Assembly (NCBI GenBank): GCA_000004985.1 | Contig: GG739317.1 | Origin: Naegleria gruberi | Lineage: Eukaryota | Length of the DNA stretch: 1,845 nucleotides | Reading direction: 5' to 3' (one strand) | In this document: piece by piece, positions 1 to 1,845 of the stretch | Layout: every line of letters starts with the position of its first letter | Position numbering within the stretch: position 1 is the first letter of the stretch | Made by a program: the position numbers and the translations under genes | The notes under the pieces: generated by a model | What the model was told of the DNA's origin: nothing | Seen by the model: only the letters and a program-made list of their open reading frames with translations | The model's database searches: none

Positions 1-426
1 ACTAAAGAATGAGTTAAACACCTCTTCTCCAAGAACAATTACCTCCATACCGTTTGGTACATGCAGTATTGATGTGTTTTCCATGCAAAAATCAGAGTAT
101 TCTTTGATCATTCTTGGTGTTTCTCGAAGTAATTTATATTTTGGAATAAATTGTTTGGAAAGAGTGTTTGTGAGGTTATTTGTCTGGTTGTTAATTTGTG
201 AATACCAGATTTCATTACCAAGCAATTATTTGTGTTGCAATACTTGTTTACAATGGAATTTTGAATACCATTACAAAACACAAACAAGCTGACCTCAGCA
301 ATTTCTTTACCCTGCATAGCTAGTGCGGCTTTGTCAATCTCTTCTTGTAGTGTAGTAAATGTAAACAGTATTTTAGGGCAATTCTTAATTGCAAAAGCCA
401 ACGCACTCGTGGGAGGTAGATAAAAA

Positions 427-433
427 TATAAAT
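427..433 (+). promoter_or_regulatory. Canonical TATA box TATAAAT. It is about 320 nt upstream of ATG 753, which is far for that gene. It could serve a divergent minus-strand unit or be fortuitous.
   Basis: Exact TATAAAT at 427..433. Confidence 0.2.
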
Positions 434-608
434 CACTAGATCTTGATTTAGGCTTTGGGGTGTATTATCCTGTAACCTTCAAAAAATATTTTCTTAATTT
501 TTGGTCAATTAATGTCGCTTAATTCATATCGCCAAGGTGATAATAGCATTTCTTTGAATCCTTCAATCCCTACTTCATTTTTTGACTTGGTTGTGACAAT
601 TTTTGGAA

Positions 609-616
609 TATATTTT
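609..616 (+). promoter_or_regulatory. TATA-like element TATATTTT, about 140 nt upstream of ATG 753 and immediately 5' of the GCRE.
   Basis: Read directly. It matches TATAWAWR imperfectly. AT-rich context makes chance matches common. Confidence 0.2.
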
Positions 617-620
617 ACGT

Positions 621-629
621 ATGACTCAT
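621..629. promoter_or_regulatory. Perfect palindromic Gcn4/AP-1-type response element ATGACTCAT (GCRE), 124 nt upstream of the ATG at 753.
   Basis: Exact 9-mer ATGACTCAT read at 621..629. Its position fits a yeast UAS. A single occurrence could arise by chance, which I put at roughly 0.2 for a window of this size and composition. Confidence 0.3.
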
Positions 630-752
630 CCACACTGACCCTTTTAGCAGATAGTGTTCTTATCGAAGTTTACTGAGATAAAGTAGTGTTTCTTGAAAAC
701 AACAATTGAATAAACTAATAATAGAAAGTATGCTCAAAAAAATTGTCATACT

Positions 753-1076
753 ATGGTCGCTAAGAAGCCTCAAGATATTGACTCCTCTTCATCTGATGAA
801 GATCTCCCAGCAGTTGAAGTAGAATACCCCACAACACCAGTGAATGCAAGAAAACTTCAAGCTGCTAAGAAGCTTAGAAAGTTAAAGGCCATGTCACCTG
901 TAGCTAATAGAAATAAGCGCAAACAATCTACTTCAGTTTCATCATCTAACAGTGCCTTAGATGATGGTATTTCAACTGTTGTTTCCAGTTTGTTGCTAAT
1001 CAATTCAACTTCGTTGGATAGTTCTTCAACTGCACCCTCTTCGTCAAACAATTCGTCTTCTTCTAATTCAGGTTGA
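753..1076 (+). CDS. Hypothetical protein, N-terminal segment of 107 aa. It has a Ser/Asp/Glu cluster (SSSSDEDL), a basic NLS-like stretch (KKLRKLK...NRNKRKQ) and a Ser/Asn-rich low-complexity tail. It ends at TGA 1074..1076.
   Basis: The ATG at 753 is the first in-frame ATG after an in-frame TAA at 711..713. Its context is good (A at -3, G at +4: catactATGG) and the leader is A-rich. Codon usage is typical of yeast-type highly used codons (AGA Arg, AAG Lys, GCT, GTC, TCT). The N-terminal 60 residues look like a real nuclear or nucleolar protein. I recognise no family. Confidence 0.55.
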   Translation: MVAKKPQDIDSSSSDEDLPAVEVEYPTTPVNARKLQAAKKLRKLKAMSPVANRNKRKQSTSVSSSNSALDDGISTVVSSLLLINSTSLDSSSTAPSSSNNSSSSNSG

Positions 1077-1112
1077 GATAGTTTTGCCAGTAGTTCATCT
1101 GAACATGATATC

Positions 1113-1313
1113 ATGGCGATCAAAGCCCAAATGCAAGAAATGATTGGAGTTTTGAGAACCGTAACAGGAAATATCTCTGAACTTACTAAGAAAGTTCAGG
1201 AGAGAGAAGAAGAATCAGATGATGATTTTGTTAATCCAGAAGCTATATCTCCAGAAGTTTGGTTATTGCGTAACCGCTCCAAGTTATTTTTACACACAAT
1301 GAATTTTTTATAG
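1113..1313 (+). CDS. 66-aa ORF in the same frame as 753..1076, which ends 36 nt upstream. It is most likely the C-terminal continuation of that gene, interrupted by the single in-frame TGA, and less likely an independent small protein. It ends at TAG 1311..1313.
   Basis: 1113-753 = 360, so the two ORFs share a frame. The 12 codons between them (DSFASSSSEHDI) contain no stop. The acidic segment EREEESDDDFVNPEAISPE looks protein-like. AATAAA lies at 1324..1329, just after the TAG. Confidence 0.35.
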   Translation: MAIKAQMQEMIGVLRTVTGNISELTKKVQEREEESDDDFVNPEAISPEVWLLRNRSKLFLHTMNFL

Positions 1314-1460
1314 ATTTTGAGCAAATAAAGTCTTGAAAATAGTTGATAAGGTAGAAAACTTCTATCACCCTGTGTGTTAAGGCAACGTAGTAGCTGTATT
1401 GCAATCTAATATATTAAAGAATCTTTGGTATGCCCTGTATTAAAAATAAATAAGTATTGG
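1314..1460 (+). terminator. Probable 3' end-processing and polyadenylation region of the + strand gene. It holds AATAAA at 1324..1329, a TATATT-type efficiency-like element around 1409..1416 and AAATAAATAAG at 1443..1453.
   Basis: A canonical AATAAA hexamer sits 11 nt after the TAG. A/T-rich UA-repeat elements downstream are typical of yeast-type 3' UTRs. These are motif matches only. Confidence 0.4.
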
Positions 1461-1547
1461 ATTTTTGGAGAATCCTAGGTATATGAAAGTAAAACAACCA
1501 TATTAGAGAGTTGTTGTGATAAGAACTCTTACATGAATAAAAAAGCA

Positions 1548-1587
1548 CCTGTAAAAAATTGTAAAGTCCTGTAAAATAATTACAATT
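1548..1587 (+). repeat. Imperfect 20-bp tandem direct repeat, two copies: cctgtaaaaaattgtaaagt / cctgtaaaataattacaatt. The first 9 nt, cctgtaaaa, are identical.
   Basis: Read directly. Roughly 14 of 20 positions are identical ungapped. Related CCTGTA copies lie at 469 and 1434. Confidence 0.45.
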
Positions 1588-1709
1588 AGTGGTTTTTCAC
1601 AAGTAAAAAAAATGCCTTAACACCTACACCAGCACTAAGGCTTTAATAAATTCCAACTTGTAAATTATTTCCAAGTCCAAATTGTGTCTTTCATACGACT
1701 AAGGCATGT

Positions 1710-1727
1710 CTTGTCCACATTGACAAG
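1710..1727. repeat. Perfect inverted repeat CTTGTC-N6-GACAAG. It could be a dimeric transcription-factor site or a small hairpin.
   Basis: cttgtc at 1710..1715, spacer cacatt, gacaag at 1722..1727. The arms are exact reverse complements and do not extend further. Confidence 0.45.
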
Positions 1728-1734
1728 CACAATT

Positions 1735-1797
1735 CAACAACAATAAACAAATAAACAATAAATTATTTATTTATTAATTTTTATTAATTATTATTAT
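1735..1797. repeat. A/T-rich low-complexity tract. It has three degenerate 7-8 nt AATAAAC units (aataaac / aaataaac / aataaat) followed by TATT and ATTATT repeats. This is typical poly(dA:dT) intergenic or promoter sequence.
   Basis: Read directly: caataaacaaataaacaataaattatttatttattaatttttattaattattattat. Confidence 0.6.
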
Positions 1798-1845
1798 CGG
1801 GTGATGAAAATCTAGGCAGGCAGGAAGGTTTAATTGATGGCCTTA

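What the first reader, a model, noticed from the sequence alone, without database searches (positions are those of the whole stretch)
753..1313. A single in-frame TGA splits one 187-codon reading frame into two ORFs
The ORFs 753..1076 and 1113..1313 share a frame and are separated only by TGA at 1074..1076 plus 12 sense codons. The promoter-like signals, the good ATG context and the AATAAA all frame the combined unit, not the halves. Four explanations are possible. The first is a nonsense allele or pseudogene. The second is a sequencing error. The third is programmed stop-codon readthrough; the downstream context TGA-GAT is not the classic leaky CAR-YYA context, so this is less likely. The fourth is a genuinely short 107-aa protein followed by a fortuitously open 3' region. 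A fortuitously open 3' region is more plausible than it first looks, because the composition here keeps several frames open, as the antisense ORF shows.
Basis: seen in the sequence. Interest (0 to 1): 0.55.

Follow-up and report, generated by a model that had tools for sequence, protein, structure and literature searches.

The report
Broken retrotransposon gene fragment in Naegleria
The in-frame TGA is real in the sequence, but it sits in a dead, truncated copy of the first gene of a multi-copy DIRS-type retrotransposon of the amoeba Naegleria gruberi, where every intact copy has an arginine codon, so it is an ordinary nonsense lesion (or a base-call error) and not a recoding signal.

Summary
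ORFs 753..1076 and 1113..1313 share a frame, split only by TGA 1074..1076.

- **Source.** The window appears to be a whole 1845-bp scaffold of the Naegleria gruberi draft genome. The 107-aa ORF is annotated there as a "predicted protein" (NAEGRDRAFT_76981).
- **Identity.** Window 655..1265 is 97.9% identical, without gaps, to the 5' end of a ~4-kb element. That element encodes ORF1 (375 aa), a reverse transcriptase and a tyrosine recombinase, so it is a DIRS-order retrotransposon.
- **The stop.** The TGA aligns to AGA (Arg) in the related DNA. All six near-identical N. gruberi paralogue proteins have R there, and homology runs straight through the stop.
- **Truncation.** Homology ends abruptly at 1265 (codon 171 of 375). 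The last 15 codons, the TAG and the AATAAA are unrelated flank, so the "187-codon unit" is not a gene.
- **Flank.** The upstream flank is a decayed host-gene homologue.
- **Excluded.** Readthrough, selenocysteine and a genuine short protein are not supported.
- **Open point.** A base-call error cannot be excluded. The window-private substitutions cluster near the scaffold centre and six of seven are changes to T.

Ordinary finding, low interest.

The parts
655..1265 (+). 5' fragment of a DIRS-order (tyrosine-recombinase) retrotransposon: leader plus ORF1 codons 1-171. It is truncated at its 3' side.
   Evidence: blastn gives window 654..1265 = L001 60..671 at 97.9% identity, 612 nt, no gaps. 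Window 655..900 = L001 4079..4324 at 97.6%. The same first bases (TGTTCTTATCG...) follow three different upstream sequences. L001 carries ORF1, RT and YR ORFs.
655..752 (+). Element leader / 5' UTR, the source of the 'promoter-like signals and good ATG context'.
   Evidence: It lies inside the homologous block and upstream of the ORF1 ATG. Promoter function is inferred, not tested.
753..1076 (+). Annotated 107-aa ORF (EFC35364.1 / NAEGRDRAFT_76981) = ORF1 codons 1-107 plus the premature TGA.
   Evidence: The exact sequence is in the collection as a N. gruberi predicted protein on a 1845-bp contig. It clusters with 372-, 375- and 569-aa N. gruberi-type proteins.
1074..1076 (+). Premature stop TGA. 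The homologous codon is AGA (Arg), so this is a single A>T change at 1074.
   Evidence: DNA alignment to L001. R at this column in P0001, P0003, P0004, P0005, P0006 and P0007.
1077..1265 (+). ORF1 codons 109-171, still in frame after the stop (Ser-rich linker plus predicted coiled-coil segment).
   Evidence: One difference from L001 in 189 nt (site 1086, private to L001). Identical at protein level to P0001 and P0003. pN 0.43 against pS 0.95 versus the divergent family member L003.
1266..1313 (+). Non-element tail of the open frame: 15 codons (LRNRSKLFLHTMNFL) plus TAG. This part is fortuitous.
   Evidence: Homology to L001 and to all full-length ORF1 proteins stops sharply after codon 171. 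Relatives continue with RQTYRDLRSSYNV....
1266..1845 (.). AT-rich (27-33% GC) unassigned flank with no long ORF.
   Evidence: No blastn or tblastx similarity to L001-L004. Composition. No RNA family or tRNA.
1..633 (-). Decayed homologue of an uncharacterised protein (P0013, from a JGI metagenome contig). It runs off the left end of the scaffold.
   Evidence: phmmer E = 2.5e-33, 40% identity, 91% of the query covered. tblastn shows it is colinear with P0013 residues 1-200, but in frames -1, -2, -1 and with in-frame stops.

Best explanation
The window appears to be a complete small scaffold of the Naegleria gruberi draft genome. Positions 655..1265 are a dead, 3'-truncated copy of the 5' end of a ~4-kb DIRS-order retrotransposon. 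That element has ORF1 (gag-like, 375 aa), ORF2 (reverse transcriptase with RNase H-like and Dam-like methyltransferase-like regions) and ORF3 (tyrosine recombinase). The fragment keeps the element's leader, the ORF1 start codon and the first 171 codons. Codon 108, AGA (Arg) in the related DNA copy and Arg in all other copies seen, has become TGA by one A>T substitution. This is one of about seven substitutions private to this copy. The copy is only about 2% diverged and has no indels, so the rest of the frame is still open. That is why it looks like one gene split by one stop. After codon 171 the element sequence ends, and the frame runs by chance 15 more codons into unrelated AT-rich DNA. The fragment lacks more than half of ORF1 and all of the RT and YR genes, so it cannot transpose. 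No recoding needs to be invoked. The annotated 107-aa 'predicted protein' is an annotation by-product. Shown: the homology, the Arg codon in relatives, the truncation point and the domain content of the parent element. Inferred: that the A>T change is a true mutation rather than a base-call error, and that the fragment is not expressed as a functional product.
For: - **Source.** The exact 107-aa sequence is N. gruberi EFC35364.1 on a contig of exactly 1845 bp. It clusters at >=90% identity with proteins of 372, 375 (three of them) and 569 aa; the NCBI-sourced ones are from N. gruberi.
- **Homology to the element.** Window 654..1265 is 97.9% identical to L001 60..671 with no gaps. TGA 1074 aligns to AGA.
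- **Arg in all copies.** R is at that column in all six close paralogue proteins. Homology continues beyond it in these and in the 36%-identical P0011.
- **Constraint downstream of the stop.** Between L001 and L003, pN is well below pS in codons 108-171 and 172-end.
- **Parent element.** L001 carries ORF1 followed by an RT ORF (RVT_1, E = 3e-26) and an ORF whose top hit is a tyrosine recombinase/integrase in Pfam (1.6e-4), NCBIfam (4.1e-4) and PHROGs (2.3e-5). Relatives of ORF2 carry RT + RT_RNaseH + Dam + Phage_integrase domains.
- **Sharp 5' end.** The same 5' end is shared by three copies in different contexts, and there is a sharp break at 1265/1266.
- **Other truncated copies.** Other fragments end at different points: L002 at window-equivalent 1021, and P0001 after codon 180.
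- **A stop is expected.** Seven random substitutions in these 171 codons give at least one stop with P = 0.32.
- **Decayed neighbourhood.** The neighbouring host-gene homologue is also disrupted.
- **Literature.** DIRS-like sequences are reported in N. gruberi (PMC3266345) and in N. lovaniensis (PMC6125883).
Against: - **No N. gruberi genomic DNA.** No other N. gruberi genomic DNA could be fetched. The DNA comparison therefore rests on metagenome contigs (L001, L002) that carry near-identical copies of the element.
- **Odd substitution pattern.** The window-private substitutions (856, 857, 991, 1000, 1010, 1012, 1074) fall within 219 of 611 nt near the middle of the scaffold. The probability of that span is about 0.009 for 7 independent sites and 0.057 if counted as 5 events. 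Six of the seven are changes to T, four of them A>T. This spectrum is odd for natural decay and compatible with low-quality read ends.
- **Junctions untested.** The break at 1265 could in principle be an assembly join.
- **No expression data.** Expression was not examined.
Confidence: 0.7

Rival explanations
1. Base-call or assembly error. The locus is the same truncated transposon fragment, but the true base at 1074 is A (AGA). The TGA, like several neighbouring private substitutions, is an artefact of low-coverage Sanger sequence in a tiny unplaced scaffold.
For: - All seven window-private differences lie in 856..1074, close to the centre (922) of an 1845-bp scaffold, where the ends of opposing reads would overlap.
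- Six of the seven are changes to T, and three or four of them are next to an existing T.
- The other polarisable copy, P0004, shows only C>T and G>A changes, a quite different spectrum.
- The flanking host-gene homologue has frameshifts and stops, which could also reflect poor sequence.
- No independent contig encodes the same 107-aa product.
Against: - There is no indel in 612 nt against L001, although low-quality Sanger tails usually give indels as well as miscalls.
- One variant at the edge of the cluster (845 T, Asn31) is shared with the second repeat copy in L001, so it is real.
- The overall divergence of about 2-3.5% is within the range seen among other copies (P0004).
- One change (991, TCG>TTG) is a typical CpG transition.
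- Read depth is unknown, so the argument is only circumstantial.
Confidence: 0.2
2. Solo terminal repeat. The element carries long direct terminal repeats that include the leader and the first part of ORF1. Window 655..1265 would be a complete solo repeat left by recombination, or a 3'-repeat copy, in which the ORF1 piece is never translated and stops are tolerated. This is a variant of the main explanation, not exclusive with it.
For: - In L001 the first 246 or more nt of the element, starting at exactly the same base as the window fragment, recur directly 32 nt after the ORF3 stop. That second copy has ATG>ATA.
- The window shares three variants (673 C, 683 G, 845 T) with that second copy rather than with the first.
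Against: - The length of the L001 repeat is unknown because the contig ends inside it.
- Other fragments end at different positions (window-equivalent 1021 in L002; after codon 180 in P0001), which argues for random truncation.
- The two L001 copies differ by 2.8% although all three ORFs are intact. That fits two different insertions (tandem or nested), or a metagenome-assembly join, better than the repeats of one element.
- The window's upstream flank does not resemble the sequence preceding the L001 second copy.
Confidence: 0.07
3. Programmed recoding. The TGA is read through or decoded as selenocysteine to give a 186-aa protein. Alternatively, the 107-aa product is a genuine short protein, for example a domesticated Gag N-terminal fragment.
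For: - The frame is open on both sides of the stop.
- The 107-aa ORF keeps the element's own leader and ATG.
- From general knowledge, N. gruberi has selenocysteine machinery. This was not tested here.
Against: - Every relative has Arg (AGA in the DNA copy) at this codon, not TGA or Cys.
- No SECIS or any other Rfam family is found at E <= 1.
- The base after the stop is G, not a known leaky context (read).
- A readthrough product would be a truncated ORF1 ending in 15 unrelated residues.
- The first 107 residues are a Ser-rich, low-complexity, poorly conserved region with no Pfam or PDB match.
- No independent occurrence of the 107-aa protein exists in about 15 billion sequences.
Confidence: 0.03

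Closest known systems
DIRS-order tyrosine-recombinase retrotransposons (DIRS-1 of Dictyostelium, PAT-like elements)
   Same: The parent element has a gag-like ORF1, an RT ORF with RNase H-like and Dam-like methyltransferase-like regions, and a tyrosine recombinase in place of a DDE integrase. ORF1 and ORF2 overlap, and the element is about 4 kb. An MTase-like domain embedded in the polyprotein is described for DIRS1-type elements (PMC4738411). DIRS-like sequences were already counted in N. gruberi (PMC3266345).
   Different: The terminal structure (inverted repeats plus an internal complementary region, or split direct repeats) could not be resolved. Only a 5' direct repeat and a weak 25-nt complementary pair were seen. 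The MT and RNase H matches in this element are below the curated cut-offs. The window holds only a 611-nt 5' fragment, not an element.
Ngaro elements (YR retrotransposons without a methyltransferase domain)
   Same: RT plus tyrosine recombinase, with a direct repeat of the 5' end after the last ORF.
   Different: From general knowledge, Ngaro elements lack the MT domain. Here a Dam-like match is present, though weak (E = 7.8e-4), and it is clear in relatives of ORF2.
Ordinary transposon-derived pseudogene fragments annotated as 'predicted protein'
   Same: It is a multi-copy family. This copy has a premature stop where the others have a sense codon. It is truncated, lies on a tiny unplaced scaffold and sits next to another decayed gene.
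   Different: Nothing of note. The only unusual point is the clustered substitution pattern that is biased towards T.
Programmed stop-codon readthrough / selenocysteine recoding
   Same: An in-frame TGA with an open frame beyond it.
   Different: The stop is not conserved (Arg in all relatives). There is no SECIS, no leaky context, and the downstream frame ends in non-homologous sequence.

Membership tests
DIRS-order YR retrotransposon (parent element of the fragment) | Reverse transcriptase domain encoded next to the gag-like ORF | tested here: met
   L001 ORF2 (1237..3150) matches RVT_1 at E = 3e-26, 92.8 bits against a cut-off of 29.6.
DIRS-order YR retrotransposon (parent element of the fragment) | Tyrosine recombinase instead of a DDE integrase | tested here: met
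   L001 ORF3 has a tyrosine recombinase/integrase as top hit in three libraries: PF00589 at 1.6e-4, NF040815 XerA at 4.1e-4 and phrog_216 integrase at 2.3e-5. All are below the curated cut-offs. The motifs ARPGE...GHSLRIG...RH-x8-Y are readable in the translation. Relatives of ORF2 are fused to PF00589. No DDE integrase domain was found.
DIRS-order YR retrotransposon (parent element of the fragment) | RNase H domain after RT | tested here: inconclusive
   RVT_3 at E = 0.017, below the cut-off. Many ORF2 relatives carry PF17917.
DIRS1-like / PAT-like subgroup | Methyltransferase-like (Dam-type) domain in the polyprotein | tested here: inconclusive
   PF05869 at E = 7.8e-4, 19.6 bits against a cut-off of 28.1. 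TIGR01712 at 0.017. Several 25-30%-identical relatives carry PF05869.
DIRS1-like / PAT-like subgroup | Characteristic termini (ITRs plus an internal complementary region, or split direct repeats) | tested here: inconclusive
   L001 shows a direct repeat 61-306 / 4079-4324 that runs to the contig end, and a 25-nt pair that is 80% complementary. The full termini were not seen.
Copy of this element family (the window fragment itself) | Nucleotide homology to a full element starting at the element's 5' end | tested here: met
   97.9% identity over 612 nt with no gaps. The same first base is seen in three contexts.
Copy of this element family (the window fragment itself) | Complete coding capacity (ORF1 375 aa, RT, YR) | tested here: not met
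   Homology ends at codon 171. There is no similarity to ORF2 or ORF3 anywhere in the window. So this is a fragment, not an autonomous element.
Nonsense pseudogene copy | Sense codon at the stop position in relatives, with homology continuing past it | tested here: met
   AGA in L001. R in six paralogue proteins. Identity to P0001 and P0003 is 100% from codon 109 to codon 171.
Programmed readthrough / selenocysteine recoding | Stop codon conserved among homologues (or aligned to Cys/Sec) | tested here: not met
   Arg in all close relatives and Ser in the distant P0011.
Programmed readthrough / selenocysteine recoding | SECIS element or other recoding RNA signal | tested here: not met
   No Rfam match at E <= 1 in the whole window, on either strand.
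Programmed readthrough / selenocysteine recoding | Translation beyond the stop | not testable with these tools
   This needs ribosome profiling or proteomics of N. gruberi.

The most novel reading that the evidence does not exclude
The truncated copy is not inert. Driven by the element's own leader, it expresses the 107-aa (or, by occasional TGA readthrough, a 186-aa) N-terminal piece of the gag-like ORF1, which interferes with assembly of the active elements' ORF1 protein. That would be a transposon-derived self-restriction factor. Nothing here supports this; it is only not excluded.
Probability: 0.02. Interest if true: 0.4.

Novelty: already known. Interest (0 to 1): 0.07.

Why it matters
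It matters little beyond annotation hygiene.

- NAEGRDRAFT_76981, and the related models NAEGRDRAFT_54817, _49700, _75391 and _76524 plus the chimeric EFC35569.1, are transposon ORF1 sequences or fragments. They should be masked or labelled as such, not counted as Naegleria 'predicted proteins'.
- The case is also a useful negative control for scans that look for recoding. A young, barely diverged pseudogene copy of a repeat looks exactly like 'one gene split by one stop'.
- The family itself (ORF1 + RT/MT-like + YR, about 4 kb) gives a cleaner example of a DIRS-order element in Heterolobosea than the 'uncertain' status reported in 2011. That is a by-product, not a discovery.

Tried and rejected
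- **Rfam and tRNA scans** of the window found nothing. This removes SECIS or other RNA explanations.
- **Pfam** on the read-through protein, on P0001 and on full-length ORF1 gave only sub-threshold noise. NCBIfam and PHROGs on ORF1 gave nothing useful. The PDB sequence search on ORF1 and ORF3 gave nothing.
- **Fetching N. gruberi genomic DNA** for P0001, P0002, P0003 and P0005 failed, as none is on record. I could not build a genomic consensus, polarise silent sites or see the termini of genomic copies.
- **A scan of JGI metagenome contigs** for ORF1 relatives found none.
- **An intron explanation for the TGA.** I considered a GT...AG intron spanning the TGA and rejected it, because relatives are colinear codon for codon with no gap.
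- **An intron or splice explanation for the divergence after EVWL.** I rejected it because full-length ORF1 is uninterrupted in L001 and the window has no continuation in any frame.
- **A B1-A2-B2 split-repeat reading of the flanks.** I rejected it because there is no direct repeat between the two flanks and no similarity to the L001 sequence preceding its second repeat copy.
- **Continuation of the disrupted host gene in 1266..1845.** I found no similarity to L004.
- **Structure prediction** was not run. The window encodes only the low-complexity N-terminus, and the full-length relatives were not eligible inputs.

Full report
**1. Observation**

The window has an ATG-initiated ORF at 753..1076 (107 aa, stop TGA at 1074..1076). 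A second ORF lies at 1113..1313 (66 aa, stop TAG) in the same frame, with 12 sense codons in between. The stop-free stretches are 714..1073 and 1077..1310.

With the local composition, the chance that 78 codons stay open is about 0.002-0.005. No mononucleotide shuffle of the window (0 of 500) reached the observed two-segment length of 199 codons; the shuffle maximum was 181.

**2. Where the sequence comes from**

A protein search with the conceptual read-through product found one hit, a 'predicted protein, partial' of Naegleria gruberi. It is 96% identical and has Arg where the window has the stop.

An exact-sequence look-up showed that the 107-aa ORF is itself in GenBank as N. gruberi EFC35364.1 / XP_002668108.1 (NAEGRDRAFT_76981). 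It sits on a contig of exactly 1845 bp, so the window appears to be a whole small scaffold of the draft genome.

The same 90%-identity cluster holds three 375-aa N. gruberi proteins, a 569-aa model and a 372-aa protein from an ENA metagenome contig. The family is multi-copy and its full length is 375 aa.

**3. What the family is**

The 372-aa member lies on a 4324-bp contig (L001) with three ORFs:
- ORF1 at 159..1277.
- An overlapping ORF2 at 1237..3150.
- ORF3 at 3153..4046.

ORF2 matches reverse transcriptase RVT_1 at E = 3e-26. It also has weaker RNase H-like (RVT_3) and Dam-type methyltransferase-like matches.

ORF3 has a tyrosine recombinase/integrase as its top hit in Pfam, NCBIfam and PHROGs, at E = 1.6e-4, 4.1e-4 and 2.3e-5. 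The R...H-x-x-R...H-x8-Y motifs can be read in the translation.

Relatives of ORF2 in the large protein collection carry RT, RT_RNaseH, Dam and, in some cases, fused Phage_integrase domains. The 569-aa N. gruberi model P0005 joins ORF1 directly to the recombinase part.

This gene set is that of the DIRS order of retrotransposons. An embedded, probably inactive MTase-like domain is described for DIRS1-type elements (PMC4738411). DIRS-like sequences have been reported in N. gruberi, with 7 sequences whose assignment to the DIRS1-like group was left 'uncertain' (PMC3266345). In N. lovaniensis they make up 0.32% of the genome (PMC6125883).

ORF1 has no Pfam, NCBIfam or PDB match. I call it gag-like by position only.

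**4. Anatomy of the window**

*The element fragment.* blastn aligns window 654..1265 to L001 60..671 at 97.9% identity, with 13 mismatches and no gaps. It also aligns window 655..900 to a second copy of the element's 5' end at L001 4079..4324. All three copies begin homology at the same bases (TGTTCTTATCG...) after three unrelated upstream sequences. Window 655 is therefore the element's 5' end.

*The break.* Homology stops sharply after 1265 (GGTTA|TTGCGT in the window against GGTTA|CGTCAA in L001). This is codon 171 of 375. The full-length proteins, and the 36%-identical family member P0011, continue with a conserved ...VWLRQTYRDLRSSYNV... and 200 more residues. The window instead reads LRNRSKLFLHTMNFL and then TAG.

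*The rest of the window.* Nothing else in the window resembles ORF1's remainder, ORF2 or ORF3 in any frame.

The AATAAA at 1324 is outside the element and is one of nine on that strand.

**5. The TGA**

The TGA aligns to AGA in L001, a single A>T change at 1074. All six near-identical paralogue proteins have R there.

From codon 109 to codon 171 the window is identical to P0001 and P0003. In that stretch it differs from L001 at one site (1086) that is private to L001.

Between the two divergent subfamily members L001 and L003, non-synonymous differences are far fewer than synonymous ones in codons 108-171 (pN 0.43, pS 0.95) and in codons 172-end (pN 0.35, pS 0.73). The region after the stop is therefore genuine coding sequence in functional copies, not a fortuitously open frame.

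That criterion is met.

A stop is also unsurprising. About 5.3% of single substitutions in these 171 codons create one, and seven random substitutions give at least one stop with P = 0.32. The frame remains otherwise open simply because the copy is young, at about 2% divergence with no indels.

**6. Recoding and short-protein readings**

Several lines argue against recoding or a real short protein:
- No SECIS or any other RNA family is detected at E <= 1.
- The stop is not conserved in relatives.
- The next base is G, not a known leaky context (read).
- Readthrough would only produce a truncated ORF1 with a 15-residue foreign tail.
- The 107-aa product covers the Ser-rich, poorly conserved N-terminus of ORF1 and is seen nowhere else among about 15 billion sequences.

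I put these readings together at about 3%.

**7. Real mutation or sequencing error?**

I could not settle this point.

*Pattern that suggests error.* Seven substitutions are private to the window copy: 856-857, 991, 1000, 1010, 1012 and 1074. All fall within 219 of the 611 aligned bases, around the middle of the scaffold. The probability of that span is about 0.009 if they are independent and about 0.06 if adjacent changes are merged into 5 events. Six of the seven are changes to T, including four A>T. In contrast, nine of the ten residue differences of copy P0004 each need a single C>T or G>A transition. Such a pattern could come from low-quality read ends in a scaffold built from very few Sanger reads.

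*Points against error.* There are no indels in 612 nt. A variant at the edge of the cluster (845 T) is shared with another copy. One change is a normal CpG transition. The overall divergence is in the range of other copies.

I estimate roughly 3:1 in favour of a true mutation. Either way the locus is a truncated, non-autonomous fragment.

**8. Surroundings**

*Upstream flank.* On the minus strand, the upstream flank (1..~633) is colinear with residues 1-200 of a 237-aa protein of unknown function, P0013. That protein comes from a JGI metagenome contig and matches at 40% identity, E = 2.5e-33. The match holds only by changing frame twice, and in-frame stops are present. In the relative's contig the gene region continues upstream. 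No counterpart of that upstream part is found beyond the transposon fragment in the window.

*Downstream flank.* The downstream 580 bp are 27-33% GC, without ORFs, repeats of note or matches.

*Other truncated copies.* Other 5' fragments of the same element exist with different end points. L002 breaks at window-equivalent 1021 and runs into a kinase-like sequence. P0001 is a chimeric gene model that joins ORF1 codons 1-180 to part of an unrelated Naegleria gene family (P0008, P0012). This favours random truncation or rearrangement over a fixed solo-repeat boundary. The repeat of the element's 5' end after ORF3 in L001 keeps a solo-repeat variant alive at low probability.

**9. Verdict**

The finding is a correct observation with an ordinary explanation. 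It is a nonsense codon (AGA>TGA) in a truncated, dead copy of the gag-like ORF1 of a DIRS-order retrotransposon of Naegleria gruberi, annotated by accident as a 107-aa 'predicted protein'. It is already covered by known biology and its interest is low. The only open technical question is whether the T at 1074 is a mutation or a base-call error, which read mapping would settle.

Noticed in passing
window 1..633 (minus strand): A decayed homologue of an uncharacterised 237-aa protein (P0013, JGI metagenome contig L004; 40% identity, E = 2.5e-33). It is colinear over residues 1-200 but needs two frame changes and contains in-frame stops. No intact N. gruberi counterpart turned up in the protein search.
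   Followed up: partly
window 856..1074: All seven substitutions private to this copy cluster here, near the scaffold centre. Six are changes to T, four of them A>T. This is an unusual spectrum that could mean low-quality base calls rather than mutations.
   Followed up: partly
P0004 (NAEGRDRAFT_49700), no DNA available: This 375-aa ORF1 copy differs from the consensus at 10 residues. Nine of them each require a single C>T (7) or G>A (2) transition relative to the L001 codons. That looks like cytosine deamination of a methylated transposon copy. N. gruberi is reported to methylate young TEs (PMC12344493).
   Followed up: partly
L001 61..306 and 4079..4324; 101..125 and 4042..4066: The element's 5' end, including the first 49 ORF1 codons, recurs 32 nt after the ORF3 stop (97% identity, ATG>ATA in the second copy) and runs to the contig end. 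A 25-nt pair that is 80% complementary lies near both ends. This could be a terminal repeat, a tandem or nested insertion, or an assembly join; I did not resolve which.
   Followed up: partly
P0001 (EFC35569.1) and P0005 (EFC35816.1): These are chimeric N. gruberi gene models. P0001 joins ORF1 codons 1-180 to a segment homologous to an unrelated family (P0008, P0012, P0010). P0005 joins ORF1 directly to the tyrosine recombinase and skips the RT ORF.
   Followed up: partly
L002 1..548: A second truncated 5' fragment of the same element, from the same ENA metagenome sample as L001. It breaks at window-equivalent 1021 and is followed by a protein-kinase-like sequence (…IYLHNLQPKFIVHR).
   Followed up: no
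I take it to be a by-product of the Ser/Glu/Asp-rich codon composition of this part of ORF1, but I did not test this.
   Followed up: no
L003 1..2002: A divergent subfamily of the same element (ORF1 336 aa, 36% identical; RT region 78% identical at the DNA level) from another ENA metagenome. The ORF1 N-terminal, Ser-rich part is much shorter and poorly conserved, while the C-terminal 200 residues are well conserved.
   Followed up: partly
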